Of a DNA stretch of 64,000 nt, positions 9,006 to 59,154 are shown piece by piece. The notes beneath the pieces were generated by a model. It did no database searches. It saw nothing but the letters and a program-made list of their open reading frames with translations, and was not told the origin of the DNA. The translations under genes and the position numbers were made by a program. Numbering within the stretch: position 1 is the first letter of the stretch; every line of letters starts with the position of its first letter. This DNA comes from Azolla caroliniana (lineage: Eukaryota; Plantae; Polypodiophyta), in NCBI GenBank assembly GCA_043228905.1, contig JBHGNT010000021.1:6076001-6140000 (forward strand), read 5' to 3'.

Positions 9006-11755
9006 TGGTATCAGAGCGCGAGGGTTGAGACTCCTCTGCAGCCGACAAAAAAGCTTGTGATAAAGACAGAGTTAAGTTATTGTTTTTCGGAAAGTTATGC
9101 ATACACTTCTGCACCCGTATTCTTTTACATGGTATCAGAGCGCGAGGGTTGAGACTCCTCTACAGCCGACATAAAAGCTTGAGATAAAGACAGAGTTAAG
9201 TTATTGCTTTTTGAAAAGGATAAGACAATAATATGGACAGAGGAATGGGAAGCTCGCTAACGATTGAGAAGCTCGACAGGAGCAACTACGCATGATGCAC
9301 CAATATCTGCTTGGTCATGGTTACTGGAGTTATGTCGAAGGAGCTAATGATGCAGCACCCGAATCGACACACAGAAATTTTTCGGCTTCGGAACAAGCGG
9401 CAAGTAGAGTTCTTTACTACTTTGCGTCCTGTGTGAGCGATTAGCTCTTGAGCTACATTCAGGATGCTACGATGCCAAAGGACACGTGGACGAATCTCAA
9501 GAGGATTTTCGCCACTAGCAGAATGGCCAAGAAGTTGCAACTCAGACAAGAGCTCAATAATGTCCGACAGAAAGATCTGTTTGTGGCCGTCTGCACAAGG
9601 GAGATTACGCCTTCGTTCTTCGAGCTTCAATCGATGTTGCTCGTGGAGGAAAATCACGGAGGTGCGCCAACGAGTATGCACACCGACAGCAAGATGTTGT
9701 ACACGGAGGAAGATAGGCCCCGTAGTCCTAACAGATGAGGCGAATCGGCGCGCAATGGAGACGGCCGAAAAGAGCAAAACATGTAGCATAATCGAAATGC
9801 CGGAAGCAGGGGGAGTCACAGCGGCGCCAAAAGCCGGCAAGAGAACGCCGCAATGGAATGTGGGTATTGTGGCAAGAAAGGCCACAGGGAGAGAGAGTGC
9901 TGGAAGAAGAGAGCCGATTCGGGCAAAGCCAAATCAAGTGAAAGAGACGCAGGACGGCATCAAAAATCGCACTACGTCGAAGGCTCTGAACGAGCCGTAA
10001 ATGGATCGGGCCTAGCCTTCATAATGAAGGACAAGGCCAATCTGATGGCCGAGAACACCTTGAAATCAAGCGAGGTGTGGTATGTTGATTCCGGAGTGTC
10101 AAGTCATATGACGACTCATAAGGAATGGTTCTCGTACTTGGAGAAACCGGAAAAACAAGGAGTGATCGAAACAGGAGATGACACTCCACATACCATTGAA
10201 CATGTTAGAGAAGTTCCTCTCAGCCACGTTGGGCAAAAAGGGAAACTTATGAACGTGTTGCACGTCATGACAATAACCAAGAACCTGGTGTTAGTCAGTC
10301 AGATCGTCGACCAGGGGATGCAAGTTCGATTCATGCACCTCGAGTGCTACATCGAAGAGGAAGGCCAAGTTATTGCCCAAGGGCACCGTGAAGGGAGGAT
10401 GCTCATCCTCGACACCAATCAAGCCGGAACCGTGCTGTTCGTTGGAGGATAGAAGGTTGAGTCAGATGTCGACCAGTGGCACAAGCGGTTTGGCCACGTT
10501 AACTTCCCACGGCTTCGTGAAATGCAAACGACGAACATTGTTTACAGCTTGCCGAAATTTCGGAGCCGTAATGGCCAAGTCTGCAACGCCTGTCAACTCG
10601 GGAAGCAACACTGACTTCCATTCCCCAATGAGCGTAATCGTAGTCGAAATCTGTTGGATTTGATCCATTCGGATGTATGGGGACCGACACAGAACGTGAG
10701 TCTTGGTGGAAGCCATTACTTCGTAACCTTCATCGATGACTTCACTCGACATACCTGGGCGTGCTTGATTGCGAAAAAGAGCGAAGTCTTCGCGTGGTTC
10801 CTGAAGGTGAAAAACCTTGCAGAAAGGGAAACAAGGCGTAAGATCAAGTGCCTACAGTCCGATGGCGGGAAGGAGTACTTCTCCGACTAATTCACGAGTT
10901 ATCTACTGAAGGAGGGAATTCGACGCGAATTCTCGTGTAGATATACGCCGGAGCAGAACGGCGTAGCACGAGCGGAAGAATCGGACGATTGAAGAAGCCA
11001 CCAGGGCAATGCTTGAAGAGAAGCATATGCCGAAGTTTTACTAGGCTGAAGCCATAAGGACGACTATTTATTTACAGAATCGAACTTCTACTAATGGAGA
11101 AGTGTCGCCACACGAGTTGTATTTCGGAAAGAAGCCAAACTTGGTACACTTGAGGATTTTCAACAGCATTGCGTATGTGCATATGCCGAAGGAGAAGAGG
11201 AGGAAACTAGATGCCAAAGCCGAGAAGTGTATCTTGGTCGGCTATTCAGACGAGCAGAAGGGGTATAAGTGTTATAACCCCCGGACAAAGGAAGTTCACA
11301 TAAGTCAAGATGTCGTGTTCGACGAGTCCGCTCCATGGTAATTGCTTTCACCTCCAATACCTCATGATTCAAGTCTAAATTCTGAAGAAGAGGTTAGCGT
11401 GATGAGGATATCGAAGCTCTGATAGTGAGTCCGATCTCATTTCAGCTAAGTGGGCCGAATGAGGGGTTGGGCCGAGATGGCCAACCAAATGAAGAGCCGG
11501 CGAGTAGTGGAGACTCGGTTGTGTTGTCCCCGCATAAAGAACCAAGAAGACGGTTTACGCATAAAGAAAAGGGAATAAGAAAATGTCGGAATACGATTTC
11601 AGCTGTGTCGAGTCTGACCGAAGCGAGTCTGACTTCGAACCAATTGAGAAGGAACCTCCGCGGAAGCAGTCAAAATCTACTGAAAAGGTCGTGAAATCGG
11701 GTAATCACGAATTACGCTGATCTACCCGCCTGAAGAACCCCGTAAAGAGGTACGA

Positions 11756-12644
11756 TGCCGTGATGTTTTCGACACATAGTGTGAAACCACCCTCAAAAGA
11801 GAGTAAAGTAGTGGTCCAAATAAACTAATATTGCAAAGTCAACTTTTGTAATAAATGATGAAAAGATAGTAAGGTAGAAGCGGTTTTTCAAAAGTAGATA
11901 AAAATAGAAAAAGTAGATAGTAAGGTGACTCTAAACGCAAGGCGTGGAATTGAGGAGCAAGGTAGAGAAAAAAGCTCATAATTTCCTCATCTGATGTCCA
12001 AATTAGACAAGAAAAGATCCATAAGAAAGATAACTCAAAGGGTTTTCCAAAAATAACTTGTATGTCTAATTTGGACGTACAAAATAAAATAATGATAGAA
12101 ATAAAATGTGACTCATATAGACAAGTTTTTGTTTAGGAGAAAAATAAAGCAAGCCATAGAAACCCTATAAATAAGAGCTATTCTTAAGAAGAAGGGGGGA
12201 GATGGATAGTGATTTGAAGAAGAAAAGATTTATGCTTCCTCTCTCATACTCTTAACCCTAAAGGGGGATATAAAAAAATCATGTATCAAAATAAGTCCAT
12301 TATATGGATGATTTTGTAATAAAAACTCTCTATGTTTCCTCTCTCATACTCTCTTAATTTAAGTTTTGCTTACGTATAGATATAATTTAGTGCTATTCAT
12401 ACTCTCTTACTCTAAGCGTTCTTACTCATAAGCATAATTAATCATTATTCGATCTTGCATACTCTCTTACTCGAAGATTTGTTTATGCATTAATATAATT
12501 AAGTATTATTCAATTTCTCATACTATCTTACTCTTATTTGAGGGAAATATCTCATCTTAAAACTTAAAGTGCATAAATCATTCTGGTCTAGAACCCCGGC
12601 GGTTCCGTCTCACAATCCGCACTAGCTGACGGATTTTCATGACA
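11756..12644 (+). mobile_element. Solo LTR (AT-rich, TGCCGTGA...TCATGACA) inserted in copia pol
   Basis: The copia sequence resumes on both sides. Terminal inverted 8-mers, 4-bp flanks ACGA/ACAG, TATAAATA near 12166, and internal CATACTCTCTTACTC repeats. Confidence 0.75.
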
Positions 12645-14614
12645 ACAGGTACAATGAATACATGGTGCACCATTACGCGTACATGACACGAGTGGCGGAA
12701 GTGCATGAGCCAGAGAGCTACGCAGAAGCGGCGACAGACGCAAGCTGGCGTGCCGCAATGGAGGAAGAGATGCGCGCATTATCGGACAATGAGACTTGGG
12801 ACCTGGTTGACGCACCTAAAGGTGTTAAGCCGATCGGATGTAGATCGGTGTTTAAGGTGAAATACAACACTGAAGGCTCGGTCAATCGATATAAGGCCCA
12901 TTTCATTGCAAAAGGCTACGCACAAAAGCACCACGTAGATTACGACGAGACCTTCACCCCAGTCGCGAAGATGACTATCGTGTGAGTTCTGCTAGCCGTA
13001 GCTGCTGCGAAGGGGTGGCATCTGCATCAAATGGATGTAAAGAATGCGTTCCTACAAGGTGTACATGGTACAGCCCCTTGGATTCCTATCCGAACAGAAC
13101 ACTTCGGCATTTTGCCGATTGAAGAAGGCGGTATATGGCCTTAAGCAAGCCCTGCGAGCTTGGAACACAAAGATTACGCAACGGTTGCGTAGGATGGGGT
13201 TTACGACATCAAAGTCAAACTCTTCATTGTTCGTTCGGCAGGGTTGACATGGACCGGTTTGTCTTTTACTTTATGTTGATGATTTAGTCATCGCCGATGC
13301 CAACCTGGAAGAAATCGGTCGCGTAAAGTCTCAGCTTGTAGCCTTCATTACTTCCTCGGGATCGAAGTGATCCGTTCCCCCGAAGGCATATTGATCAATC
13401 AACGTCACTACGCATTGAATTTGCTCTTCAAGTTTGGGATGGAAAATTGTAAGCCCATCTCAACCCCTCTGGATAGAAACGTAAAGCTTCGCCGAGATTC
13501 GGGAAAGGTGTGCGACCTGACACAGTTTCAACAGATTGTCGAAAGCCTCATCTGCTTGACGATAACTCAGTCGGACCTCAGCTATCCGGTCGGAATGATC
13601 AGTTAATTTACGTCGTAGCCCACGACCAAACACCTTCAATGCGCACAAAGGATATTACGATATGTCAACGGCATGAAAGACATGGCGTTGTTGTATCGTG
13701 CAAGCATAGCCGAATAGTTAGTTGGCTACACGGATGTCGATTGGGCTGGAAATGCCGATGATCGTAGATCCACATCTGGATACACATTCTCATTGGGAAG
13801 TGCGACGATCGCGTGGAGCAGTAAGAAGTAGCTGATAGTCACATTGTCGAGCATAGAGGCTGAATATTGAGGGGTGACTATCACTACATGCGAAGTCATT
13901 TAGCTGAAACGGCTATTACAGGATCTGCACGTAGAGGTGTCCGATCCAACAACGATCTACTATGACAACCTCAGCAACATCCACCTTGCGAAAAACCCTG
14001 TATTCCACGCTCGGACCAAGCACATTGAGGTGCACTACCATTTTTTCTGTGAGCATGTCCTTTCTAGTGAAGTTGAACTGGCGTATGTTCCGACGGTTGA
14101 GCATTTCTCGGTTGAGCAGCATCCACCTTGCGAAAAACCCTATATTCCACGCTTGGACCAAGCACATTGAGGTGCATTGATGCCTTGACCATGTCCACTA
14201 TAAGACTATATTTGGCAAATAGTGTCTACTTTACTGTTTTTAGACACCCAAAACTCCAAAGAACTTTGGAAAAAGCTATGCAATACCTATGAGAAGCAAA
14301 CTACAGCTAACAAAGTGTATTTGATGAGAAAGCTCTATGACCTTCGTATGAAGGATATAGATAGTATTGCGTCTTATTTAAATTAGTTTGATGCATTATG
14401 GTCGCAATTGCAAGCTCAGAAAAGGACCGTGAATGATGAGCTAAAAGTTGTATTTTTGCTATGCACATTGCCTAGCTCATGGGACACATTTTGCACCGCT
14501 ATTAGCGCTAGTGTACCAAACGGGAAATTGGTGTATAATGACATAAGTGGAGCACTATTGGGTGAAGAAATACATAGGATATCTATGGTTTCCTCACAAG
14601 TTGGAGATGCACAT

Positions 14615-15073: not shown

Positions 15074-15978
15074 TGGTATCAGAGCGATTTGGTAGCTCAA
15101 TCTAGCCCACTCACCTCATCGTGATCGTGTGTTGTGCTCTACGCTGAGTTCAAGAAGAACCGGCTCATCGCTATCGTAGTGCGACTACATAGCTCGTGTT
15201 CGAGAGAGAAGGACCAGAAAAGAAGGAAGAAATCTACATCGACAATGAATACTCAAATGGGGAGTGCTCTCCCTAGCGAGAAGTTGGATCACAACAACTT
15301 TGCATCTTGGGAGTACAAGATGCACCAATACCTTGTCGGCCAAGGCTATTGGAGCTACATCAAAGGAGCACAAGAAAATCGGCCCAAACCGGTGTCGTGA
15401 AGAAAACCGTCCCCAGGCGCAAACTGTGTATAGTGTGTGTGAACCAGCCCTTACACGTGGGCACGTCCCTTGTCGTATAGTAGATAGGTAGGCACAAAGG
15501 TTAAATCCTAAGTAGCAATATTCTGTAAGGGAAATCGAGGAGTATCTCTGTCCAAAAGGACAGAGAATTAATGTGATGTAAACGGGTGAAACGGCCTCCC
15601 TCCTTGAGCTATAAAAGAGAGGGAGACGGGGGAGAGAAAAGGGGTGGCTAGAAGGAACGAAGTGCTATTAGACTGGGACCGAGCTCTTCTTCTCTGTCAT
15701 TCCCCATAGCTTTCTTTTGCGCAGGCTCGCAGGAGGCTGAATCTGCTCCGTGGAACGCCCGTGTGCTTCCGACAGAATCTCCATCTTGCTCTCCTGTGTG
15801 CGTGGGTGATCAGGCGTCGGCATCCACCTCGCCGACCTGGTCGGCTGTAACCGTTCGAGTCGTCTGCATACATACAAATACATGCCTATATTTACATACA
15901 CACTCTAGTGTTCTCAACTCGCGTCTCCTGTGTTGTTGTGACGCGTCCCCGTGCGCTTCTTTGTCTATACGTGAGTGA

Positions 15979-16013
<35 letters not shown>

Positions 16014-16599
16014 ACGGCTCTCTCTGTCGTTGCGTTGTTGTCGCTGTCGTCGTGGTCGCCGTCACCGTCGTCGTCGTCTGCAGCCGTTGTCTGCAGCCGC
16101 TGCAACCGTCGCCATCTACTCTCTCTCTCTCTCTCTCTCTCGCTTCCTCGTCTACTCTCTGCCATTGCTGTCGCCGGCTAGTGTCGTCGCCGTCGCCGTC
16201 GTCTGTTGCTGTCGTCGTCCGACGACTACCGTTATCTGCGGCCGTCGCCGTCTTCTACAGTCTGCAGTCGTCTGTCGTCGTCTGCCGTATGCTGCTGCCG
16301 TCGTCTACTGTCTACTGCCGTCGTTTGACAACTTCCGCCGTCACGGGGTGTTTCTTCTCCGTTTTCTCTTGATGTGGTGAAGTGCCATTTTCTTGACGAG
16401 TTCGTGGGTGGGTTCTTTTGGTGTGCTCGTCGCGTGCTACAAAATGCCGATGTGATTGCGACATACACACAAACTCGGCTAAGTCTCGAACCCATTTATT
16501 TTACCTTTTTTTTCTTATTGACACCACAATGACGTCTAGACGGACTAAGGAACATAAGGATATACAAGACGAGGCTATAAGTAAGGAGGACTTTTTTAT

Positions 16600-17340
16600 A
16601 TGTTTAATCGTTTAACAAAAATAGAGATGGATATGAAAAAATGGGTGAAAGACACCGAAACCCACAAGAAAAAAGATAGAGAGGAAAAAGACGCCCTCAA
16701 GGCCGAAATAGAACAACTTAAAGTAGAAAACATCGACCTTAAAAAACAACTTAAGGACATCGAGGTATCTCGAGAAGACGGTGAAATATCCTCTATAGAG
16801 GATATAAAGGACGAAATTAAAAAAGTTAAAGAGGAAGTTAATAATAACATAGAGTTAGCTAAAACGGGTTGGGTAGATGTGGTTAAAAGAAACATTAAAA
16901 AAGAAATAAAAGATGAAAATATTGTTAATACCACCCTTGAAGAAGAGAAAATGTGTCAGGCCCGACGCTTAAATGTACGTGTCACTGGGCTCAAGGAAGG
17001 TGCATCCCCAAATGAGGACGCACAAACACTTGGGAAAATGTTAGGGTACACAGAGGCCCTACCTATCACCAAAGCATGGAGGGCCGGGCGTGACACAACT
17101 AGGAAGAGAGCCTTAGTCCTTCAATTTAAAGACTTAGACTATAGAACCACTTTCTTTAAGAAGAGACCAATCCTTCGAGGAATGGATGGGGAACCCATCT
17201 ATCTCGATGAAGACCTCACTAAGATGCAAATTGAGCATCGCAAGAGTTGTATGCCACGAGTTATGCAAGCTCGTAAAGAAGGCCATCGCGCCTTTTACCG
17301 AGACGGGCGAGTGATCATAAATGATCGCACTACTAATTGA
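16600..17340 (+). CDS. LINE ORF1 (coiled coil + conserved C-terminal region ending IYLDEDLT...)
   Basis: Uninterrupted 246-aa ORF directly upstream of the endonuclease. Confidence 0.8.
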   Translation: MFNRLTKIEMDMKKWVKDTETHKKKDREEKDALKAEIEQLKVENIDLKKQLKDIEVSREDGEISSIEDIKDEIKKVKEEVNNNIELAKTGWVDVVKRNIKKEIKDENIVNTTLEEEKMCQARRLNVRVTGLKEGASPNEDAQTLGKMLGYTEALPITKAWRAGRDTTRKRALVLQFKDLDYRTTFFKKRPILRGMDGEPIYLDEDLTKMQIEHRKSCMPRVMQARKEGHRAFYRDGRVIINDRTTN

Positions 17341-17346
17341 CGGCGT

Positions 17347-20300
17347 GTGGCCCATGTGACAGAAAATGCACTTAGGATGACCCTATGGAATTGTAATGGC
17401 ACACTCTGGGCACACCCCGGCCGCCTAGAGGAGATACTAAAGGTATCTGATATACTTTTCTTGGTAGAAACACATCAGAGCCCAAATAGAGGACTCCCAC
17501 GGGTCGAAGGATTCCGTTGGGAGTCCGCTTTTAGACAAACCTCACGTCGACACACTACTAGGGGATCTGGAGGTGTCGCGATACTATTTCGTAGAGAGCT
17601 ACATAATAGGATAGAAATAATGAAGATAGACCCAGAAGCTCGTTTTATGTGGGTGAAAGTCTCCACAAGCAAAGACCATGCAGTATTTTTCGCCATTTGT
17701 TACTTTCCCCCAAAAGGATCCCGTTATAATATTGGTGGCTTGACGAGATTAGTCGATGAAGGAATGCCACATGGGCCTTCTCCATACAAACCCCTATCGG
17801 ATGACATAATCCGATATTCTTCCCAAGGAGAAGTATTTCTTGTAGGAGACTTCAATGCGAGAACCCAATCCCGACAATGCACAGTATTTCAGATGAATAG
17901 AAACCTAGAAATGGTAAATGTTGATCCTTTAGACATAGACACCACATGTAGATCAAAGGATCAAGGTGCGGACGCCACGAGCTTTGGCCATCATCTGCTC
18001 GAACTTGGGAGTCGGCACGAGATGGTCATATATAATGGTTTAGCTAAGTGGCCAGGTTCGGAAGAGCTCACATGTTTCCCACATGGAGGAGGGGAAAGCA
18101 CAGTTGACTATCTAATAGGGCGCCCTGAAGCTACCCACATGATTAACTCCTTCCGAGTGGCTCCATGCCCTATTGGCGCAGACCATAGTTTCTTATACTT
18201 CGAGCTAAAATGTGATATCTCTAAGGTCACCAAGTCTAGTCAACCTTGCCATCACACCACAATACATTTCACACATGAGCTCTCTGACATATACTCTCAA
18301 CATGTTCATGCTAGCAGTTTCCCATATACAAAACACTCAAATCAAGGTAGATCAGGATCAATGCCACAAAATAAATGGTATGACGAGGATTGTAGGGACC
18401 TACATAGACAACTTACAGTATCGCAACTCAATGGTAGTATTACCTCCATACAAGCTCGCAAAGAAATGCGTAAGATGACACGTCGTAAGAGACGAGCGTG
18501 GGAGGCATCCCAATACTGGGAACTCTACCATATGCTCATGAGTAGCGATTGTGCCATGGCATGGAAGAGACTACGGGAGCCAAGACCACAAACACCCATC
18601 GAAGATCCTGAAACTTGGCACACATATACAGAGAGACTTTACCAAATCCCAAATTAACCACCCTTTCCAATGCCTTCCACACCCCGGCCTACCACGGGGA
18701 CACTTTTCACGACCTCTAGGGTCATGAAGGTCATAAAGAAATTACAACATAGGAAGTCCATGGACCACACAGGATTGCGAGCAGAACACATTATATATGC
18801 GAGAGAGTGCCTAGCTCCCTTGCTAACTCTAATCTTCAATCGTGCCCTTGCGGAGGGTTTTCCACCACAGTGGACTATGAATACAGTGGCCCCCATACAT
18901 AAAGGGGGGGACCCCATGGACCCAAATACATATAGGACCATTATGATAGGCCATACCCTTGCTAAGTTATATGGTGTAGTAATGGAAGCAGAGCTTAGCG
19001 ACTACATGGAGACCCTAAACCTTCGTGCACCTGAACAAGCTGGCTTTAGATGAGCCTTCTCCACTATTGATCATATCTTCACACTTAGATGCCTAATTGA
19101 CCAAAGTAAGGCTCGCAAGAAGAAATTATATTGTTGTTTTGTGGACTTCCGCAAAGCCTTTGACACAGTCCCTAGAGAGCAGTTGTTTGATAGACTTAAA
19201 AGCTTGAGGATACCAGATGATATGGTATGGGCCATCTACGCACTATATGAACAAGTGTCCGGGTGTGTCTGATGCCCAGGTGGCCTATCCAATCGTTTCA
19301 CTAGCACTATTGGTGTAAAACAAGGTTGCCCCCTATCACCGATGCTTTTTGGGATCTACATTGATGAGATCACAGATTTTATTGCTCGTGAGGGAGGCAC
19401 CGGAGTGGTCCTTGGGGATACGCAGGTTCGTATCTTGCTCTATGCGGATGACATAGTTTTGCTCTCTGAATCCGAACACGACCTACAAAGGCACCTTAAT
19501 GCCTTAGATGACTTTTGTGTACAACGAGGATTGGTAGTGAATCTAGGGAAAACGAAAGTCCTTATCTTCCACACATCGGCCCAAGTTAGAGCTAAGTGTC
19601 ACCTAACTATCTCCCATAGCCCAGTCGAGGTGGTTGGATCGTACGTCTATCTCGGAGTCACTTTTAATGCCCGCTCAGGTAAATTTTCGATGACACAGGC
19701 AGCGAAGGATAGACTCACGAGAGGACATGCATCCCTCTCACTCCTAGAGAGACAATGCCACCAAGCACACTTTCAAGAGCCACGGACTAAAGGGTGGCTC
19801 TTTGACTCATTAGTGACCCCCTCCCTCATGTATGCATCAGCGGTTTGGGCTCCAGGATTACCATCTTTCATGTGGACGCAATTAGAGAGACCATTGGTTA
19901 TGATGCTATCACGCCAACTCCGAAGCAAATCGATTGTACCACATGACATTATTAGGGCCGAGTTCACGTTACCCCCAATGCTAGTAGAGGCACTTTTTCA
20001 ACTTGTAGTCTTCATTGATAGGATACATAGCCAACCACATGATAGAATATCTCATCAAGCCTTTAAGGCCTCTCGATCATTGTATGAGTCCGGCTATACT
20101 AGCTCATGGTATGGCATGATGGTGAGTTGGCTTCTTGCGAATGGTCTAGACATTAATAACCTACCTCCCCTTAGGTACAACCACACGAGTGATAACACCT
20201 TAATCTCTCATGAGAACCGCAATAAAGTAATACGCCAAGAAATATGGCAAATTTACACTCGGTGTAAATGGATCACCCCACTAGAGCCACTCCCATCTAA

Positions 20301-20997
20301 AATGTCGTACTATAAGAAACACTTCATGCACTTCTCTGAGTTAGGTTTTATCACGCGGCCAAAATATCTAGATGTATTCTTACCACATGCACTAAGGGTT
20401 GCCATTGGACAACTTAGAATATCATCTCACCAACTTGAGATTGAAAATGGCCGTACTAGTGGAGTCCCTAGGGAGGAAAGGATATGTAGGTTATGTCACA
20501 TAGAGATAGAGGATGAGTACCACTTTACATGCAAGTGTCCAACCTATGCCGAGATAAGGGCAAAATACCAAGACATACTTGGTCCGTCTCCCACCCTCCC
20601 CAAACTATTAGATACTCTAGATATAAAGAAATTAGGCAAATACATTCTAGAGCTAAAACAACACAGAGAGAATAAGTTACAAAATGTTGACAATAATGCT
20701 GCTAATGATCACGAACATGTAACAAATGAAGTTTTTCAGGAACCTGAGGAGACAACGAATGCCGACACACTTGCACCACTCGGCCTTTCCATTGATGAGG
20801 CAGAAAACCAGAGAAGAACCAAACGTCCTCAGGTGCCGGGTTTCAAAGCAACTCGACGTGATGTGGAAGCAATATTGAAAATAAGGGAACGTGAGCTACA
20901 CCGCCTAGAAGCCATGGCTAGGGCACTCTCTACATTGGAACCCACATCAAGACCCTTTGACCCCCCACTTCTTTTCGAGAGGCTTGGGTGGAAATAA
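17347..20997 (+). pseudogene. LINE ORF2 (APE endonuclease, RT, C-terminal Cys/His motif), one reading frame with a few premature stops
   Basis: ORFs 17347-18657, 18670-19053 and 19342-20997 are all in the same frame. Confidence 0.9.
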
Positions 20998-21279
20998 AAT
21001 TAGGCTTAGTGTATAGTCACTTTCGAGTATACTACATATTGTACACTACTAGAACTCTTTTAGTTTAAGTTCTATTTTTTACTTAATTTTATTTTAGTTA
21101 TGATGACTGGATAAATACTCTATTGTTGTAAACCAATTGTCTCATGGGCCAAATTTGGCCTTAGAAGACGTTAATATATCTTTCTTTCTTTCTCTCTCTT
21201 TTCCTCACCTATTCCTCGGTCCAAGACCCCAGTGGTCCCACCTTGTTCTCCACGCACACGCGTAACAACGCGACATATT

Positions 21280-28356: not shown

Positions 28357-28401
<45 letters not shown>

Positions 28402-45483: not shown

Positions 45484-47402
45484 AGGGGGAGTTTGTTGGG
45501 ATTTCGGTCCCTCCGGATGGGATGTCCCCGGAGATAAATGACGGCAACGGAGCCGGATGATGAAGACCCCGGCTACGGAGCCGGATGATGAATGTACCCG
45601 GAGAGAGATCCGGATGCGGGGACATATTTGTGAATATGTTTGCCAAGGGCCCTTGAGGCTATATTTGTAAATAGCCCGAAAGTCATATGTGTATAAATAT
45701 GACTTAGGGCAAACAGTTTATGTTGTTGCTCAATTTTTTATGCGAAGTGAGAGCAGCCGAGAGACGAGGAGAGCGAGAGAGAGAGTCGAAGAGGTCGTTG
45801 CCTCTGTGTATTACCGCCGCCTGTGGCGAAGACAGTGAGCTCAAGGTTGTTGCCTTGTAGCTTCACCAGTGTACATCTCTGTTCATAGTGATAGTTGGAG
45901 TTTGAGGACTCCCGTGGTTTTTCCCATTTAGGGTTTTCCACGTAAAACATCCAGTGTACCTTTCTCTCTATTGTCCTCGTGCACTTTGTATTTCCCGTTT
46001 TCTGTGAGTTGATCTTATTCCTCGGTTGTGGCCGAGCGCTGTTTTACAACACATCACCAGTTACGAAAGCATATACAGTTCTTGTTTATTTGTCTATTCT
46101 CTCTCTCTTGCTTGTTCTCTTGTCTAAGCTCTCTCTCCCGCTATCTCTTAATATTGAGCCTCGTCTACTTGTCCTTGACAATCTTGTGGTCTTGCTTATG
46201 CTCTCGATCTCTCTTAGTGCTTAGCCTCATTCCACCTGTTCGTGACAAAATTGGCCGAGGAGACCAACCAGGTAGCTAAGGTCGGAATGACTGATCGTGA
46301 GGTAGATGAGGTGCCCAATCAGTTGTCGATATTGAGTTGGCTCGCACTCTTTTGTGCCAGAGTCAGTATCTAGTTTCCGGTTTTGATCCAAAGGGGTTGC
46401 CACATATTTGCACCCAATCATCCCGAACTTGGATAACAAGTTGAGGATGTAGTGTCGTTGGGAGATCATAATGCCAGCTGGATTCTGAATTACTTCAATA
46501 CCTAGGAAGTAATGAAGCTCTTTCATGTTCGTCATCTCGAATTTGCTAGAGAGGAGGAACTTGACCTTTTTTATGTTGACTAGATGTTCAACTCCAATGA
46601 CCAGCTCATCCACATATAGGATGATGACAATCAGGATTCCAAAATTGCTTCTTACATAGACGGAGTTGTCAGATTTTGACATTCTAAAGTCGATTTGATG
46701 AAGATATTGTGTTATCTTTGAGTGCCAAGCACGTTATCGTGAAGAAAACCGGCCATAGGCGGAATCGGAGAGAAAGCGCGTGAACCGGCCCCTACACGGA
46801 TGGACGCGTGACTGTATACTTTGTACACGAACTGATGGATGTGACTACTAAGCCACACGCATTTATTAGAGGGGATTGTGCGTATCCCTGAGAGGGGACA
46901 AGGAATAAAAGGAAGAAGAGAAGAGAAAAATGATCATCGTGCGCGAGGGAGAAGGGAAGCGCTGCTGCAGAAGGGAAGCCGAGCTCTCTCTCTACTCCTC
47001 GAGCCGTCGTTCTCTATGGGTCTGTCGCCGCCTGTGGGAGTGCGTTGCCTCTGCTTCATGGACAGCCCGTGTGCTTCCAACAGAGTCGCTCCCTTTTCCC
47101 ATTGTTTCTTGGAGTCGGGTGACTGTCGTCGGTGTGCGTGAGTAGGGTCCCCGTGTCGGGTCCGTCGCCGCCACGTCGGTTGTAACTGTCAGGGATTGAA
47201 ATCTCTTGCCATTATTATTAAGTGTTACGATTCTATCTCTTTCCTTCTCGCTTTTCGTGTCGGTGAATCTCTCTCTGTCTCTCTCTCTCTCTCGCTCCTC
47301 GGTCCAAGACCCCCGTGGTCCCGCCCCTTTCCACATGTATGCGCGTAATAACGCGACATCTTTGGTGAACCCGACGTGAAGAGGCAACAAAGGAGTTGAA
47401 AG

Positions 47403-48787: not shown

Positions 48788-51700
48788 TTTAGAGAGGGCT
48801 ATCAAGGCGTGGGGCCGCGACACTCCGGACACTCCGGGAAAACCCCACAAATGTACGATAGAGGCAAAACCGAAGAAACCTTGTACCATAAGTAGGAAGT
48901 TTTGTTTCTCCGACAACGGAGGGTGTACGATAGTCGGCGTCGTTGGCCGAGAAAAGACAAGGATGGAAGAGCGACTTCGGATGTGCGGAGTTCTCGGTCC
49001 CAGCGAGGAAATCAACGGACCCGTGGAGGCGATACCTTGGGAATACTGCGAGAGGTGGTCGGAGAAGGCCTTAAAGAGGACCGGACGATACCGGTTTGTT
49101 CAGAAGAGATGTACAAAGTCATCACGGACTTCAGTCGGGGGCTCGAGTCGGATCGGACGGCCCGGGTTAACACGAAGTACAAGACTGTGAACCGGAAGGT
49201 AAGGCCAGTCGCGGCACCCTTACAGGAGGGCAGCGACTTGCGAATCAAGGGGGTTGCGTCGGACCCCAGTTTACGAGATCCGGCCTGCATAGGACACACC
49301 TTCACCGACAGAACGCTACGAGAGCTAAAAATTGGTGGGGGCGGTTTCCTACTACCGGCGGAAGAAGACCGGTTTCGGAGAATGCTCAGAAGGCACGGGA
49401 AAGCCTTCGCATTCTCACCGGAAGAGATCGGGTGCGTAGACCCGACAGTCGTGAAGCCGATGGTGATATTCACGGTACCGCATGTGCCATGGAATCTCAA
49501 ACCAATTCCGGTACCGAGAGCTCACATCCCGGAGCTGATGGAGCTATTGAGACAGAAAGTCGATATGGGCATCCTCGAACCGTCGAGTGCCCCGTACTCG
49601 AACCGGTGGTTTACCGTACCAAAGAAGAACGGGACGTTGCGCTTCATTCAAGACCTGCAACCGGTCAACAGAGTGACCATTCGGAACGCAGGAATCGAAC
49701 CAACGATAGACGAGTTCGTGGAGGCCTTCACCGGAAGGTCGATCTACTCGGTCGGGGATCTATACTCGGGGTACGATCAGTTCCAACTAGCCGTAGAGAG
49801 CAGAGACATTACGACGATGCGGACTCCTCTCAGCGTAGTGCGGATGTGTACCCTGCCACAAGGAGGGACGAACTCGGTGGCCCACATGGTGAATGCGATG
49901 AACAAGGTGCTGAGGGATTGTATCCCGGACATCACCATGCCATTCTTGGACGACATCCCGATCAAGGGATGTCCCATGGAGAAAAGGGACGAAACGATCG
50001 GACCGGACGGATGCCGGAAATTCGTGGCGACACACATTGACAACTGCGAGAGGGTGCTACAGAGGCTAGAGGACGCGAGGCTCACCTTCTCCAGGGAGAA
50101 ATCGGCCTTCGGGCAATCGGAGATCATGGTCGTCGGACATCTATGCGGACCGTATGGCCGGAAACCGTCTCCGGCTAAGGTAGAAGCCATCTCCGCAATG
50201 AAGCCCGACTGTAACTCGGTCACAAAGGTACGGAGGTTCTTGGGAGCATGCGCTTTCTACCACATATGGATCCTGCATTACGCCCACGTTTCCGAGCCGC
50301 TATACGGGTTGCTGAAAAAGGGGCCAAAATTGGAGTGGCGGGACGAGCATACGGAGTCGGTCCGAAAGATGAAGGAGGCTCTTGCTGCAGCTCCGGCACT
50401 CCGGAAGGCTGTCTACGAGAAAGGTACTCCCATCTACATGATGGTAGATACGAGTCCGACCGGGATCGGATGGGTCGTCAACCAAGAAGATGAGGACGGC
50501 ATTCGGTTCCCAATCCAGTTCGGCGCGAAGGTCCTCAACGAGCGACAGCGAGGATACGCCCAGGTTAAACGCGAACTCTGGGGTATCGTTTCGGCGGTGA
50601 AGGCCGATAAAGACTATCTGATCGGGACAGAAGTGATTATCGAGACGGACTACCTACCGATTCTCGGCATGGTTTCCGGATGCACAACCCCGGACCTGGC
50701 AATGCTCAGGTGGATAGCGTACATCAAGTCCCTGTGCCCGGAAATACGACATATTTCCGGGAAAGACAATACCATGGCCGACATGCTTTCGAGGGCGCGA
50801 TTCGATGATGAGGGTGGCATGGTTTCGGAGGACGAGGAAGTCGGCATGGACTTCTTCGAGGCGGTTTACGTAACAACCGAGGGGGGGAGCACTCCGGTGC
50901 TGAATGATTTCAACGAGAGCAAGTACGACGGGGAGTGGCTGCAGATTGGGGGATTCTTAAGGACCATGACGCCGGACGCGTCATGGACAAAGAACGAGGC
51001 CAACCGGATCTGGAAGAAAGCGTACCGATTCTTTCTCCGTGACGGATACTTGTGGAAGCACCAGAAGAAGAGAAACGGCATCCCGCTTTGAGTAGTGGCG
51101 ATGAAAGAGGAACAGGAGGAGTTGCTGGAGGCCTACCACGACAGCCCCTGGGCTGGACACCGTGGGACGTGGGCCACATTCGAGAAACTAAAGGGGAAGT
51201 ACTGGTGGCCGGGACTGTATCGGGACGTGCATCGGTTCGTGACAACTTGTGAGAGCTGTCAAATACACTCCATAGTCCGACATCGGGACGAGCTTCACCC
51301 TACATACCCTCCGGCCATCCACTTCAAATGGATGGTAGATTTGGTGACGATGCCGATGGGCGTAGGGCAGATGCGATATATGGTGCTGGCCCGGGAGGAC
51401 CTGACGAACCAGGTGGAAGGCCGAGCCCTACAGAACAAAACGACCGCGGCCATGTGTCGGTTCCTGATCGAGGACATGTTATGCCCGTACGGGTGCGTCG
51501 GGAAGATCGTGGCTGACCGCGGGGAGTTGGAAGCCGAAGAGGCCGAGGAGCTGTTCGACCGGTTAGGGGTCAAGCTCTCGCTCACCACAACGTACAATAC
51601 GGAGGCGAACGGGAAGGTGGAGCGCGGACACGGACCGATCGTCAAAGTGCTAGTCCGGGCATGCGGAGGCCAGGTCGGGAACTGGCCACGACTGTTACCT

Positions 51701-52270
51701 TATGCCTTGTGGGCGGACTGGACAACGCACAGTTCGGTAACCGGGTTCATGCTGTCAGAGCTCATGTTCGGACAGAAGCCGATCATGACGATGGAACGGA
51801 CGATCTCCTCTTGGGCGACAGTGGACTAGAGAGACGAGATGAGCCGAGAAGAACTACTAGCGGCGCATATACGGCAGCTCGAGCGGAGGCCAGGGGACGT
51901 GGAACAAGCAGCGGAGAGACTTCGGGCGTCAAGGATGAGGAACAAAGCCCGGTTCGACCAAACGCACCGGCTCTAACCAAAGAAAATCGAGGAAGGCGAC
52001 TGGGTGCTAGTCTACGACAGCAGCCTCGACAACCAGCACCGGGCAACACAGAAGTTTACAAAGCGGTGGTTCGGGCCTTACGTGGTAACAAGCGCCAACG
52101 ACAATGGGACGTATCACCTGGCGGAACTCGACGGTACGAGGATGGTGGTACCGGTAGTAGGGAAGCGGATCAAGGCATTCAAAAAGCGCCACGACGGCGA
52201 ACCGGATGTAAGAGACCTGGACAGCGACGACAAACAGTCCGAAACGGAGGACGAACCGATGAACAAGTAA
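48788..52270 (+). pseudogene. pol: Gypsy pol (RT-RH-IN) with few lesions
   Basis: ORFs 48902-51091, 51095-51829 and 52004-52270; FLDDIPIKG; integrase HHCC, DDE and GPY motifs. Confidence 0.93.
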
Positions 52271-53980
52271 CCGGAACCCGGACTGGTTTTCTCCAAACCA
52301 GAACCCAATTTTGGCGCATAACAGTGGATGCGCGGTTAGGTGGGGGCGGATGTCGTGAAGAAAACCGTCCCTCAGCGCAATCGGTGTATAGCGCGCGCGA
52401 ACCGGCTCTTCACGCGTGCGCGCCCTCTAATGTATATAATAAAGGATTAGGTACAAAGGTATATCCTAGGTAGTTAGATTCGGTAGGTAGGAAGTTAATG
52501 AGGGAAACGGCTCCCTTCTTGGAGCTATAAAAGAGAGGGAGGCGCGGGGAGAAAGGGATTGCGCATTGAGGAGGACGAAGTGTTGTCGGTCCGTAACCGA
52601 ACGCTTCTCCTCTGTTCATTCTCCATCGCTCTTCTCTGCAGGTTTTCGGGAGGCTCGCGCTGCTTCGAGGAACGCCCGTGTGCTTCCAACAGCACCTCCA
52701 TCCTATCCCCTTTCGTGTGCAGACAAGCAGGCATCGGCATCTGTTCGCCAGCCTGTTCGGTTGTAACCGCTCGCGTGCTCTGTTGTTTTGTGTCATTCGT
52801 TAATATACAAACATTCGTGTCTCTCTGCCTCTGTGTCCATTCGTGTTTTCTACGTTGACGGGCCGTGTCCCTATGTTTCTTTGCTCATATGTAACCGGTC
52901 GTCCCTCTCTTTCTCTTCCCCCTCCTATCACCTGCTCTTCGGTTCAAGACCCCGGTGGTCCCGCCTCGTTTCTCCACGCACGCACGTAGTAATGCGACAA
53001 CGGCACGTCGAAGCCGTTAACTACTCAGTGTCGGCAGGAACTCAGGTCGGGGGTGATGAGACCCGGAAGGCGAAGGACTCTGGATTCTGGCCGCTAGTGC
53101 TAGAAGGCCTCTCCGGAGTTCGGCTGAGGAAGGAAGAGGCGAACCGCGCGGAACAACGGGTCCAGGAGGTCATCGATTGGCACGATCCGGTGGAAGAAAA
53201 AACAGGCTTCGTAGAAGCCACTTGCCAGAACTACGAGGTTCTGGTGGAGGACAAACGGCCAGGAAAGGCTGGAGGGGTTGGGCCCCCGAGGTATGAGACC
53301 CGGTTCGGGCCGAAACCGACCGGTGCCGGCAACCCAAGCGTGCCGGATAGCAAGAAGCAGGCGGGGTTTCGGTTGAGCACCGAAATCGAGAGAGCAACGG
53401 ACCTACGGAAGGTCCTTGAAGAGAGAATCCTCGACAATAGAGTGGAGTTGTCGTTGCGGGAGGTGTTGGGAATCGCCAAGAGGGAGTTCCACGACTCTAT
53501 CGTAGACTTGGTGAAGCGGAAGAGGCTCTTGACGGAGCCGGAACCGGAGAAGCCGGTGAAAGTGCGGACCACGCACCTGGAAGACGGGGCCCTGGAAGAT
53601 GAGTTGGCGGGAAGCCACTACACGAAGCCGCATTGGGCCAGGGCGACTACGGAAACCCCAGTACGGATCGACAACGTTCTAGAACCAGTGGTGGCGTTGG
53701 TAGACCATGGATCCGAAATCAACCTGATGTCCATGGATTTCTACAAGAAGGGTAAATGGCCGATCAACACCAAGCATGGCTGGAAGATACGGGCAGCGAC
53801 GCGCTGTCGCGTTGTTACGCGTGTGCGTGGAGAGAGGTGGGACCACGGGGGTCTTGGACTAGGGAGCGACGGAGCGTAGGAAGTCGCACCTCGCCGTTTT
53901 CTGGGGCACCCCTGAAACGCACCGGAAGCAACCGAAGAGAGAGAGGGAGTGAGAGAGCGTGCTTGACACCGACTCACGCT

Positions 53981-54011
<31 letters not shown>

Positions 54012-55935
54012 GCGCGCGCCCTCTTGTACAGGAAACGCAGGGAAGGAGGGGAGCACCCGACACCAACAAGACGCCAATATACACGGACAAACGCAAAAGT
54101 ATATGTATATATATATAAGAAGAATACACTCCCGGCTTCAAGCCGGACCAGGATAGTTTACAATAGTCGTCTGCTGTCATGCCGCCGTCGGGGAGCTCTC
54201 GGGCTCATCGCGCCGAGCGGGGTCTTGCACAGGAGATAAGCTGCAGCCAACCCTAAACGAACACGAAGGGGAAGAAGAAGAAGCAGAAGAAACCTAACCC
54301 TAAACCTACCGGTATACCCTCTAATCCAAAATGGGCAACCCTTTTACAAAGGGCGTTCCCTCCCTTTTATAGAACAAGGAGAGGGATGCGTTACAATGTG
54401 GGACAAATCCCGACTTTCATGGGATTGTCTGTCCCGACTTGACTACTCTTCGGCGCCATAAAGGCGCCCTCGATATTCATACCAAATGTACATGGGTGCG
54501 TACACATGCTGCACCCCGCCGATGTAGACAATGTTTCCCGGTTTTCGCCTATGGCCGAAATTCTTCACGACATCCGCCCCCACCTAACTGCACGTCCACC
54601 GGTACGTGCCAATCTGGTGGAAGGGTGAGAGATTTCGGCCAGTGAGAAACCGGTCTCCCGTGATCTGCATCTTGGCTCGCTGCCGGTTTGATCCGGCGGC
54701 TTCGAGTTTTCCTTCGCGCTCGCCTCCCTGTAGGCTCGTTCGACCCGTCAATGGGTCCTCTGCCGCGATCTCCATAGCACGCGTTCTTCCGTTGGCCCTT
54801 GTTCGGCCGTATGAACACCCCGCTTCCCGCCGTATGCCCGATGTCCTCCGCTAGAGGAATGCCCGTGGCAGCCCGCTTGGCCTCCATTGTCGAATCGTGA
54901 TGTCCCCATGGTGTTTTGCGTCGCCTTCGTCCTTCCGCCGCCACCTTCCTTCTCCATGGTCTTAAATTGCCATGTCGGCTCGAACCGCCATGGTCTCCAG
55001 AACGGTGTGGAAGATCCCTTTCCGGCCTTCTCCGCGCTCGCCTTTCCGCTCCGGCACCTCCGTGTGCCACCTACCCTCGTCTGTTGTTTGGCACTGCCCG
55101 AGTTGCACTCCTCGTCGGCCCCTTTCCGGCCTGATCGTGCATGTTGTTCACCCGCATACCGGTGTCCTTTGCATCCGAGGAACACCCCGTAGTAGCCCGC
55201 TTGGCCCTTCCCATCGTCGTGCTGCTAAAACAGGTCCTGGGTCTTTCGCTTGCCGTCGTCCCCTCGCCCCCACCAGCTTGTCACCCCGGCTTGCCGTGTC
55301 AGTCTTTGTTACTTCGACAGAGTTACCGAGATCTACGAAGCGAGTGTGGAGGATCCTCCTACAGACTCTCTTGTCATCCTAGTTCCGACCCTGTTCAGTC
55401 CACTAGGCACTTGTCCCTCGTTCTCGGCACCTCCCTTGTGCCGTCTTCCACTTCCTTCGTTCGGCCTCGCCCGCGCCGAGCACCGTCCCGTAGTCCCGCT
55501 TCGATCCGGCCCGTGATGGCCACTCGCGAGACTCTTGTTCTGTCCAAGGTGTGCCTTTCCAGCCTGACACACCTCCCCGTGTTCACCCCTATCGGCTCCT
55601 TCCGATACCTTGTGTCGTCGGGTCCCGTTCCCTGTCGCCACTGTCCTTCTCCCTCGGTCTCACGTTGCCATGTTGGTCGAACTGCCGGAGTCTCCGGATC
55701 AGTGTGAGGGTCCCATAGGGCCGGACTCCGTTTCTATGCTTGCCGTCATTCGGGTGACCTTTGTTTGAGTCCCTCCCGGACTCTCCTCATGTCTTCCGCG
55801 TAGCCGGGTCCCGTTTCCCGCCGCCACCTTCCTTCTCCCTCGGTCTTACGTTGCCACGTTGGCAGCACAGCCGGAGTCTCTGGTTAAGTGTGGGGATCCC
55901 CTAGGACCGGACTTCCTTATGCCCATTGTCTTTGT

Positions 55936-56147
55936 CACCTCGCCGCCACCGTCAGTATCTTGGTCTTACGTCGACCGCGTTGCCGACTGCCGAAGTCTCT
56001 AGATCCGGTGTGAAGGATCCTCCGTAGACCGCCCATCCGTAGCCCTTGCCTTCGCCACCTCGCCGCCACCGTCAGTATCTTGGTCTTACGTCGACCGCGT
56101 TGCCGACTGCCAAAGTCTCTAGAACCGGTGTGAAGGATCCTTCGTAG
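55936..56147. repeat. ~120-bp-period direct repeat inside the gag-only element
   Basis: CACCTCGCCGCCACCGTCAGTATCTTGGTCTTACGTCGACC... occurs twice; more degenerate related units lie at ~55620-55915. Confidence 0.85.
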
Positions 56148-57080
56148 GCCTTCGTCGCCTTCTTGACCCTGTCCTGGGTCGTCCTTTTCCGTATGTCGAG
56201 AGGGCGGTTTACTTTGCACCCCCTCCCGTGGTACCGACGTACCATGTCCTCGGCCTCTTCGTAGGCCTGCTCTCTTCCTCCCTCCCGGAATGGTCATCCG
56301 GGAGTCCGCTCCGCCCGGTTCTCGTCCGGGTCCGTTCATCCTTCTCCAGATTGCCGAGTCCTGTTCTCCTGTCGCACCGTCTCTCGTACAGGACTTACGT
56401 CGACACTCGGGACTGCAACTTGATCGGTGTAAGGAATCCCATAGGACCGGCTTTCATTCTCTTTCCAAATCTCGACCTTCGCCCGGTCGGTCTTTCTCCC
56501 CATGTAAAAGAGGGCGGCTCGTCCCACACCCTCTCTCGTATCGGCACCTTTATGCCGAGTCCGGCCCCGATCGAACGATCCACGACCGGATCACGCTCCA
56601 CCCGTATCGGAATGTTGATCCCCTCGTGTCCTGTCCGTCCTCGGCCTCCTCGCAGGCCGTTTCCCATCCATCTTCGCTGGCATCGTGCCAGGACTCCTCG
56701 GTACCGCCATCCATCTCCTCGGTCTTACATGGGCATACGGGCCCAATTGCCGAGTTCTCCGGAATCGGGTCCGTGGGCTTTCGTCCGCTCCTTCCCCGTA
56801 TCGTCTCGTCGGTGATTCTCGCCCTTTCGCCGTTGCCTTCCTCCGCTTGGGACTCACGTGGGCACTCGGGCCCAACTGCCATCGTCTTGGGAGCAAGTGT
56901 GGGAAGACACAAAGAATCACCCGTCCGTTTTATGCCCTTGTCCGTAGCCACCAACTCTTTGTGGTCGGCGGCGGTCTTCTTACTGATCGCGCAAGCCCCG
57001 TCTGGGCTTGATTCTCCAATTATCGGGATCTCGGGCTGACACGCCCGAAACCGCTAGTCCCAACGTTCCGGTTCCGCGAT

Positions 57081-57989
57081 CTATATCTCGGCCTCGTCCT
57101 TGGCCGTTCCATCTCCGCAAGTCGAGAGGGTGTTTCGTTCCGCACCCTCTCCCGTGGTACCATCATACCGATCTTCCGCAGTCGCGTGGGGCAAGTCCGT
57201 CTCCTCGGTCTCGGCTTCCGGCCTCGATCCTCCCTCTTCCTCGAGCATCGCTTTGAGAGCTGCGTAAGCCTCCGCAATCCTGGCCCCAACGCCGACCCTT
57301 GCCGACTCTCTTTGCCGTTCGGCCTCTTCCCGCTGTGATGGCACGCCGTCGCGTACCTTCCTCTTAGCCTTCTCGGCTCGCTCGTTGTCTAGCCGTTGGC
57401 ACACCCTTCCGACCTTCAACCAGTCATCCGTAATCCCATTCGCTCCATCATCGTCTTCGAGCTCAATCCCGATGGCTTCCCGTTCCGCTCGGTCGATCGA
57501 CCTGACGAAAAAAAGGACTTTGTCCGCCCCCACAAAACCTTGTTCCCGCTCTGGGAGCCGAGCAAGTCGTCGCTCGAACTCCCGGAACGCCTTCGTCGCA
57601 CCCCGGTGGGTCTTTGCCGATGCTACCCACTGGTCGAAGTGGTGTCGTCCCCGGCTCTTCCGCCGTCCTCCGTATGCCTTCAGGAGCGCCTCTTCGAAGG
57701 CCTCCCACGACCCATGAGCCTCATGGAGCTCCATTACTTCCGCATGCTTCCGGACAGCTACGACCCGGCAGAAGAACTCCAGCCTCAACGCCTCGTCTAC
57801 GCCACGCTCTTCCATTTCCGCGTTGTAGGCTTCCAAGTAAGATGGAACTTTGTCCCCATTGAAACGGCCGACTCTTTCGACCACTCGCCCGACCGCTTGT
57901 TGCGCTGCTTCTCACCTCATCACCACTCGTGCCGACTCCAACACCACTTCGGCCACCATCTCTGCAAGGTCGTCGTCTTCCGACTCCAT
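57081..57989 (-). pseudogene. gag: Gag-like ORF of the non-autonomous element
   Basis: VGRFNG..VPSYLEAYNAEM and VLFFVRSID align with the autonomous gag. ATG at 57989, with one early in-frame TGA. Confidence 0.8.
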
Positions 57990-59154
57990 CCTCCCTTGCC
58001 GCCTTTCACGTCGGGTTCACCAAAGATGTCGCGTTGTTACGCGCGTGCGTGGAGAAAGGCGGGACCACGGGGGTCTTGGACTAGGGAGCGACGGAGCGTA
58101 GGAAGTCGCACCTCACCGTTTTCTGGGGCACCCTTGAAACGCACCGGAAGCAGCCGAAGAGAGAGAGGGAGTGAGAGAGCGTGCTTGACACCGACTCACG
58201 CGCGGGCGCACACACACACACCCTCTTGTACAGGAAACGCAGGGAAGGAGGGGAGCACCCGACACCAACAAGACGCCAATATACACGGACAGACGCAAAC
58301 GTATATGTATATATATAAGAAGAATACACTCCTGGCTTCGAGCCGGACCAGGATAGTTTACAACAGTCGTCTGCTGTCAAGCCGCCGTCGGGGAGCTCTC
58401 GGGCTCGTCACGCCGAGCGGGGTCTTGCACAGGAGATAAGTTGTAGCCAACCCTAAACGAACACGAAGGGGAAGAAGAAGAAGCAGAAGAAACCTAACCC
58501 TAAACCTACCGGTATACCCTCTAATCCAAAATGGGCAACCCTTTTACAAAGGGCGTTCCCTCCCTTTTATAGAACAAGGAGAGGGATGCGTTACAATGTG
58601 GGACAAATCCCGACTTTCATGGGATCGTCTGTCCCGACTTGACTACTCTTCGGCGCAATAAAGGCGCCCTCGATATTCACACCAAATGTACATGGGTGCG
58701 CGTACACACGCTGCACCCCGCCGATGTAGACAATGTTTCCCGGTTTTCGCCTATGGCCGAAATTCTTCACGACAGCACGCCACGGAAGAACTACATGGGG
58801 CCCTGTCCGAACGTACGGGTGAAAATCGGCAATGTCGAGATCGACGAGCACTTCTTCGTGCAGGAGATGTCCTCGCATTCAGTTATACTAGGAGAACCAT
58901 ATATCACGGCGGCACAGATGGAGACCAAGGTGTTGGACAACGGTTCAGCCTATGCAAGAGTCAAGAGCCAAGACGGGCGTCACTCGGTCCAGTTCTTAAC
59001 GGTGCGACCAAACCACGAGCGTAACCGCGAGGCCCTCGACAGCGAAACCCGAGGGGATGTTTAGAGAGGGTTGTCAAGGCGTGGGGCCGCGATAGTCCGG
59101 ACACCCGAGAAGAACCCCACAAATATACAGTACGGAAGAAGACCTGTACCATAG

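What the first reader, a model, noticed from the sequence alone, without database searches (positions are those of the whole stretch)
11752..58778. CpG-centred 4-bp target sites for all TGTCG...CGACA-type LTR insertions
Seen: the flanks are CCGG/CCGA (15389, 28499), CCGT/CCGT (25817, 26578), GCGC/GCAC (53801, 58775) and ACGA/ACAG (11752, 12645; the homologous copia sequence reads ACGG), plus unpaired ACGT (46731) and ACGG (53000). All six sites fit N-C-G-N, and every mismatch is a G>A change as expected from methyl-C deamination. The copia TSDs here are 5 bp with no CpG (CATCA, CACAT, GTTAG). Inference: this integrase, which has no chromodomain, cuts symmetrically around a CpG. That could steer it into CpG-rich or methylated transposon DNA and explain the self-nesting.
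Basis: partly seen in the sequence, partly recalled or inferred. Interest (0 to 1): 0.82.

Follow-up and report, generated by a model that had tools for sequence, protein, structure and literature searches.

The report
Phygy-like retrotransposons insert at CpG
These jumping genes, likely from a moss or liverwort, almost always sit on a four-base site with CG in the middle; the pattern is real but was already published for the moss Phygy lineage, to which they likely belong, and whether they sense DNA methylation is untested.

Summary
All 6 window sites carry a central CG in at least one copy. Alignments to empty paralogous sites fit a 4-bp duplication at the 4 paired sites. The pattern extends beyond the window. 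In 121 metagenome loci, LTR ends picked without looking at the flank gave central CG in 19 of 22 flanks and 25 of 30 in an overlapping, looser screen, against a background of about 5%. In 4 of 4 sequencing runs that hold this family, the consensus after the LTR end begins ACGT.

It is not new. Neumann et al. 2019 (PMC6317226) report that Phygy, a chromodomain-less Ty3/gypsy lineage of Physcomitrella, has 4-bp TSDs with an NCGN preference and a tRNA-Trp primer site. The window elements match those features. No labelled Phygy sequence was available for a tree, so membership is likely, not shown.

Steering into CpG-rich or methylated DNA is unsupported: 6 of 26 flanks are CG-poor, and copia and LINE elements nest here too. 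This scan earlier noted a similar CpG preference in fungal elements (e1-10582392, unreviewed).

The parts
15389..15392 (.). Left TSD of element A (CCGG), inside a copia gag
15393..28498 (+). Element A: full-length Ty3/gypsy (Phygy-like); about 7.2 kb net of the LINE in its 5' LTR and the solo LTR B in its integrase
21280..21297 (+). Primer binding site of A, TGGTGAACCCGACGTGAA, 4 nt after the LTR end; tRNA-Trp type (identity recalled, not tool-verified)
27769..28498 (+). 3' LTR of A (730 bp), preceded by a polypurine tract
28499..28502 (.). Right TSD of A (CCGA)
25817..25820 (.). Left TSD of solo LTR B (CCGT)
25821..26577 (-). Solo LTR B (757 bp, 34% GC) of a related family with the same PBS type, inserted in A's integrase zinc-finger region
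26578..26581 (.). Right TSD of B (CCGT)
53801..53804 (.). Left TSD of element C (GCGC)
53805..58774 (-). Element C: 4970 bp, LTRs 53805-54572 and 58027-58774, intact PBS and PPT, no Pfam domain in 5 ORFs tested (likely non-autonomous); inserted in the gag region of the same lineage
58775..58778 (.). Right TSD of C (GCAC; G>A at the CpG relative to paralogues)
11752..11755 (.). Left flank of insert D (ACGA; paralogous empty site ACGG)
11756..12644 (.). Insert D: 889 bp, 32% GC, TGCCG...TGACA; probable old solo LTR, family not shown
12645..12648 (.). Right flank of D (ACAG)
46731..46734 (.). Unpaired left flank of element E (ACGT)
46735..47358 (+). 5' LTR of element E (begins TATCG), followed by the same PBS
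48810..52255 (+). pol of element F: RT, RNase H, integrase (H2C2 + rve); no chromodomain or archaeal RNase H detected
52351..52999 (+). 3' LTR of element F
53000..53003 (.). Unpaired right flank of F (ACGG), in gag of the same lineage
40690..46056 (+). Control: copia element with exact 5-bp TSD CATCA/CATCA, no CpG

Best explanation
These are chromodomain-less Ty3/gypsy retrotransposons, likely of the Phygy lineage in a bryophyte, that sit in 4-bp duplications centred on CG, likely because their integrase itself selects the CG pair at the centre of a 4-bp staggered cut. Shown: the 4-bp duplication, the central CG, its presence in empty sites, and its sharing by several LTR families. Inferred: the two-fold symmetric integrase complex kinks target DNA at the central pyrimidine-purine step, as described for 4-bp retroviral integrases (PMC4422553), and adds base-specific readout that admits CG but not TA, CA or TG. 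Inferred: later deamination of methylated CG and CCG erodes the TSD copies. I judge the choice most likely to be sequence readout that does not need methylation; this is untested.
For: Window: 6 of 6 sites with CG in at least one copy; 4-bp register at 4 of 4 paired sites.

Blind flank screens in 121 loci: 19 of 22 (background 26 of 550; p about 1e-22; CG peaks only at flank position 2) and 25 of 30. The two sets overlap. The loose-end consensus after the LTR end starts ACGT in 4 of 4 runs (23, 28, 28, 28 contigs).

The CG is target-derived: empty paralogous sites carry it for B and D and for L029 and L036. No central TA or CA occurs in the curated 26-flank set, with 1 TG, so flexibility alone does not explain the preference.

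Lineage: RT-RH tree places the window element in a clade with Riccia elements (SH-aLRT 99), apart from chromodomain-bearing and angiosperm rows (quick tree). Same PBS in A, C and E; no chromodomain or aRH. Phygy is published as 4 bp 100%, NCGN, tRNA-Trp 81%, no extra domain.
Against: No labelled Phygy sequence was obtainable, so clade membership was not tested (REXdb FASTA too large; no Physcomitrium-named hit in the listings). The tRNA-Trp identity of the PBS is recalled; three attempts to verify it failed. Net length of A (about 7.2 kb) is just below the published Phygy range (7.66-9.97 kb).

Misses in the screens: 3 of 22 and 5 of 30. Post hoc, L011 and L002 look like PBS junctions and L070 a degenerate PPT, L041 reads ATGG, and L037 (ACCT) is unexplained. 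Most metagenome flanks are single-sided, from short contigs of few samples and unknown hosts. No biochemical or methylation data.
Confidence: 0.72

Rival explanations
1. The integrase, or a tether, prefers methylated CG, so the CG-centred TSD is a chromodomain-free route into silenced transposon DNA.
For: All six window sites lie in other transposons, in DNA whose LTR pairs decay mainly at CG and CHG. At least 6 of 26 metagenome flanks are LTR-retrotransposon DNA. Phygy is reported as enriched in centromeres of the liverwort Apopellia (PMC12885004, passages) and as nested in Tcn1 in Physcomitrella (PMC6911290, passages).
Against: A sequence preference for CG explains the TSD data without it. 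Copia and LINE elements nest in the same window without CG TSDs, so nesting needs no special cause. No methyl-binding domain was detected. CG-centred TSDs also occur in Drosophila ZAM-group elements (CGCG, PMC5408687), in a host recalled to have almost no CG methylation. CG-poor flanks (6 of 26) argue against steering to CG-rich DNA but not against methylation.
Confidence: 0.15
2. The elements are a sister lineage of Phygy that shares the target preference, not members of it; the CG preference would then be older than Phygy.
For: Membership untested. Length is slightly below the Phygy range. The wider clade (SH-aLRT 99) includes Chara, Tilletia and Colletotrichum elements. An unreviewed scan note reports NCGN TSDs in fungal elements (e1-10582392).
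Against: TSD length, TSD motif, PBS type and domain content match Phygy's published row jointly. The other 4-bp non-chromoviral rows differ: TatI has aRH, and Selgy uses tRNA-Ala and is about 5 kb.
Confidence: 0.12
3. The pattern is chance, or an artefact of misplaced LTR boundaries or a CG-rich neighbourhood.
For: Small window sample; window CpG o/e is 0.94; site D has decayed termini and a 2-of-4 TSD match.
Against: Boundaries were fixed independently by PBS- and PPT-adjacent copies and by empty sites. Enrichment is over 15-fold and confined to one register, and it replicates in 4 runs.
Confidence: 0.01

Closest known systems
Phygy, non-chromoviral Ty3/gypsy lineage of Physcomitrella patens (Neumann et al. 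2019, PMC6317226; seen: passages, section 9, supplementary file MOESM5)
   Same: 4-bp TSD, NCGN preference, tRNA-Trp-type PBS (81% in Phygy; identity here recalled), no chromodomain, no aRH, coding region filling most of the interior, non-seed-plant relatives.
   Different: Described from one moss species; the element here is about 7.2 kb against 7.66-9.97 kb. The paper states the motif without a mechanism in the passages seen. Here there is a soft extra bias against T at position 1 and A at position 4 (23 of 25). Clade membership was not tested.
Ginger1 DNA transposons with gypsy-like integrase (Bao et al. 2010, PMC2836005; seen: passages)
   Same: 4-bp TSD centred on CG (CCGG 75%, CCGT/ACGG 24%); TGT... 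termini.
   Different: DNA transposons of animals with TIRs and no RT; much narrower target set.
Drosophila ZAM-subgroup errantiviruses (review PMC5408687; seen: passages)
   Same: LTR elements whose preferred target is a short palindrome containing CG (CGCG).
   Different: Insect lineage with env, and a fixed tetramer rather than NCGN; not a close relative.
Prototype foamy virus integrase, 4-bp stagger (Serrao et al. 2015, PMC4422553; seen: abstract and passages)
   Same: 4-bp duplication with a flexible pyrimidine-purine step at the centre; nearest solved integrases after Ty3.
   Different: Weak preference for any YR step, not near-obligate CG; small neutral residue at Ala188, where this lineage aligns a Glu.

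Membership tests
Phygy (REXdb non-chromovirus|Phygy) | RT/RH/INT sequences group in the Phygy clade | not testable with these tools
   REXdb FASTA too large to read; no Physcomitrium-named homologue in the listings. An own tree shows only a Riccia-containing clade apart from chromodomain-bearing rows (quick tree).
Phygy (REXdb non-chromovirus|Phygy) | Ty3/gypsy domain order RT-RH-INT | tested here: met
Phygy (REXdb non-chromovirus|Phygy) | No chromodomain | tested here: met
   No Chromo hit at E<=1 in 6 of 6 proteins; pol ends about 100 bp before the 3' LTR
Phygy (REXdb non-chromovirus|Phygy) | 4-bp TSD with NCGN motif | tested here: met
Phygy (REXdb non-chromovirus|Phygy) | PBS complementary to tRNA-Trp | tested here: inconclusive
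   18-nt PBS identical in A, C and E and matching plant cytosolic tRNA-Trp as recalled; tool checks found no tRNA (0 of 31 loci) and no paper
Phygy (REXdb non-chromovirus|Phygy) | Length 7.66-9.97 kb (descriptive, one species; the authors call size relatively insignificant for classification) | tested here: inconclusive
   Element A about 7.19 kb after subtracting inserts with approximate LINE limits; slightly below the range
TatI (4-bp TSD, tRNA-Trp) | Archaeal-type RNase H domain (100%) | tested here: not met
   No RNase_H or RVT_3 Pfam hit at E<=1 in P0001, P0002, P0034
Selgy (4-bp TSD) | tRNA-Ala PBS, about 5 kb | tested here: not met
   Length about 7.2 kb, above the 4.4-6.7 kb range; PBS read as Trp-type by recall
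Chromoviruses (Tcn1, Galadriel) | C-terminal chromodomain; chromovirus clade | tested here: not met

The most novel reading that the evidence does not exclude
The Phygy-type integrase core reads 5-methyl-CG directly at the centre of its 4-bp cut, giving a chromodomain-free mechanism for targeting silenced DNA, and this CG-centred targeting is ancestral to a clade spanning bryophytes, Chara and fungi.
Probability: 0.12. Interest if true: 0.7.

Novelty: new member of a known kind. Interest (0 to 1): 0.2.

Why it matters
As it stands, modestly. It extends a one-line published observation from one moss to several related LTR families in other hosts, and adds a soft flanking bias. A plant LTR integrase with near-obligate CG targeting is a convenient system for asking how integrases read target bases. 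If it proved methylation-sensitive, it would be a new way for a retrotransposon to find heterochromatin without a chromodomain.

Tried and rejected
No whole genome is held, so the genome-wide TSD logo was replaced by metagenome loci and contig laying. A viral-contig scan for the LTR-PBS junction found 0.

Labelled Phygy sequences were not obtained: the REXdb FASTA and the per-element table are too large (they may bear on termini, per-position TSD bias and membership), the RLG2 transcript cell is cut at 400 letters and is not labelled Phygy, 0 of 10 clusters gave an organism name, and the ESM Atlas gave no informative taxa. tRNA-Trp verification failed. The careful tree did not finish; the quick tree is used.

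The idea that T at position 1 is forbidden was dropped when 2 TCGN sites appeared. It remains a bias, 23 of 25 against 47.5% expected (p about 3e-6; noticed post hoc). The profile uses 26 of 30 flanks, after I dropped L002, L011, L037 and L070, so it is not a blind count.

Literature searches: 'NCGN'+'retrotransposon' gave only PMC6317226 as relevant. 'Phygy' gave 18 papers, of which I opened 3. A CpG/integrase/bryophyte search gave no mechanism paper (PMC6839031 passages show a 6-bp TSD with no motif). PMC2864245, PMC5014426 and PMC7466625 (passages) gave no TSD motif for Ylt1-like or RLG2/3 elements.

No structure or complex prediction was run, since it could not decide base specificity.
Full report
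Setting. The window is a stack of nested transposons (49% GC, CpG o/e 0.94): several copia elements, at least two LINEs, and a Ty3/gypsy lineage. The gypsy pol's nearest named relatives are Riccia proteins at 57-59% identity, with unnamed metagenome proteins at up to 78%; Chara and fungal elements follow at 32-41%. The host is therefore likely a bryophyte, but it was not identified. No whole genome is held.

Anatomy. Element A spans 15393-28498; its 5' LTR is split by a LINE and its integrase by the solo LTR B (25821-26577, minus strand). Element C (53805-58774, minus strand, 4970 bp) has both LTRs, PBS and PPT but no Pfam domain in 5 of 5 ORFs tested. E contributes a 5' LTR at 46735-47358, and F a pol and a 3' LTR ending at 52999. 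Insert D (11756-12644) is an AT-rich 889-bp segment with decayed termini. A, C and E share the PBS TGGTGAACCCGACGTGAA 4 nt after the LTR end. B matches the LTR end of a PBS-bearing element in L002 at 80.6%; D has no match among the 122 loci.

The observation. All quoted tetramers are in place. Joining the flanks and aligning them to empty paralogous sites in the window gives gapless alignments with exactly four duplicated bases for B, C and D and for A. The empty sites read CCGT for B, GCGT and GTGC for C, and ACGG for D, so the CG comes from the target. With CG at 5.6% of dinucleotides, 6 of 6 is about 3e-8, or 4e-5 if TG and CA are allowed.

Beyond the window. I defined LTR ends from PBS-adjacent copies and LTR starts from PPT-adjacent copies, then read the flanks at all other occurrences. 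Of 22 external flanks, 19 had CG at positions 2-3, against 26 of 550 further out (p about 1e-22), with no comparable peak at other offsets. A second screen anchored on each PBS (66 of 122 had enough upstream sequence) gave 12 of 13, 18 of 20, 22 of 26 and 25 of 30 at 0-3 mismatches; the two sets overlap. Post hoc, L011 and L002 look like PBS junctions and L070 a degenerate PPT, L041 is ATGG, and L037 is unexplained. In sequencing runs that hold this family, contigs leaving the LTR end have a consensus beginning ACGT in 4 of 4 runs (23, 28, 28 and 28 contigs; consensus only, no per-base counts, and one run may be the window's source). Contigs also show LTR end and LTR start joined through CCGC (X1, X2, X4; X1 and X4 are one sample) or ACGT (X3), as expected if a copy inserts into an existing TSD.

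What it is. Neumann et al. [quoted passage not shown] Jedlicka et al. (PMC6911290, passages) also report 4-bp TSDs as commonest for Phygy. The window elements have the RT-RH-INT order, no chromodomain and no archaeal RNase H. In a quick RT-RH tree of 42 rows that I chose, they group with Riccia elements (SH-aLRT 99) inside a larger clade with Chara and fungal rows, apart from chromodomain-bearing and angiosperm rows. The defining phylogenetic test against labelled Phygy could not be run, the Trp identity of the PBS rests on recall, and A is about 0.5 kb shorter than the published minimum. I call them Phygy-like and likely Phygy (about 85%).

How it likely works. Integrases with a 4-bp stagger bend target DNA sharply and favour a flexible pyrimidine-purine step at the centre (PMC4422553, abstract and passages). 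CG is such a step, but in the curated set of 26 flanks 25 are CG, 1 is TG and none is TA or CA, so base-specific readout is inferred in addition. There is a softer symmetric bias against T at position 1 and A at position 4 (23 of 25 against 47.5%). After insertion, methylated CG and CHG decay: the LTR pairs of A and C differ at 23 of 206 CG, 12 of 114 CHG and 6 of 466 CHH sites, which accounts for the imperfect TSDs. The contrast is much weaker in the long copia pair (41 of 599, 44 of 510, 83 of 1162).

Steering and self-nesting. Not supported by what could be tested. Flank CG content in 26 loci runs from 0.3% to 9.8%, pooled 5.0%, with 6 at or below 2%. At the junction, 4 of 26 flanks match the same lineage and 2 match window copia, in a small database. 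Copia and LINE elements nest here without CG-centred TSDs. Methyl sensing is neither shown nor excluded; Phygy's reported centromeric enrichment in Apopellia (PMC12885004, passages) is compatible with it but also with selection.

Comparison and verdict. CG-centred 4-bp targets are also described for Ginger1 DNA transposons (PMC2836005, passages) and CGCG for ZAM-group elements (PMC5408687, passages). An unreviewed note of this scan reports NCGN TSDs in fungal elements (e1-10582392); later look-ups by words and by sequence found nothing more. The finding is real and well supported, but it is the known hallmark of the Phygy lineage seen in further families. Interest 0.2.

Noticed in passing
window 21276-21279, 47359-47362; loci L001-L122: The PBS is set 3-5 nt (mostly TCTT or TATT; 66 of 124 matches) from the LTR end rather than the 2 nt recalled as usual, which would imply a longer overhang processed at this end. 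The search pattern allowed only 3-5 nt.
   Followed up: partly
runs X1, X2, X4, X3 laid on window 27700-28600: Contigs join an LTR end to an LTR start through a 4-bp NCGN spacer (CCGC, ACGT), suggesting re-insertion into an existing TSD, which itself remains a target.
   Followed up: no
window integrase 51092-51826; P0207: The integrase motif D-R-G-E-L (114 of 119 motif-bearing homologues) puts Glu where PFV has the target-contacting Ala188 (next to an alignment gap); retroviruses have small neutral residues there (PMC4422553). A lead only.
   Followed up: partly
L001-L077 flanks: Soft symmetric bias of the TSD against T at position 1 and A at position 4 (23 of 25 against 47.5% expected).
   Followed up: partly
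window 53805-58774: Likely non-autonomous 5-kb derivative with intact PBS and PPT and an interior with no Pfam hit and internal repeats (55619-56150).
   Followed up: no
window 16026-21182: A LINE (endonuclease + RT) sits inside the (CT)n tract of element A's 5' LTR.
   Followed up: no
window 2766-8769: A 6-kb TG...CA segment flanked by GTTAG/GTTAG holds a reverse-strand LINE; its identity is unclear.
   Followed up: partly
window 48010-48340: A PPT plus LTR start lies directly after E's gag fragment and then jumps into gag sequence, suggesting a rearranged tandem of the gypsy lineage.
   Followed up: no
window 40730-40948, 45514-45620, 59231-59392: Copia LTRs carry a 28-bp tandem repeat whose copy number differs between the two LTRs of one element.
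   Followed up: no
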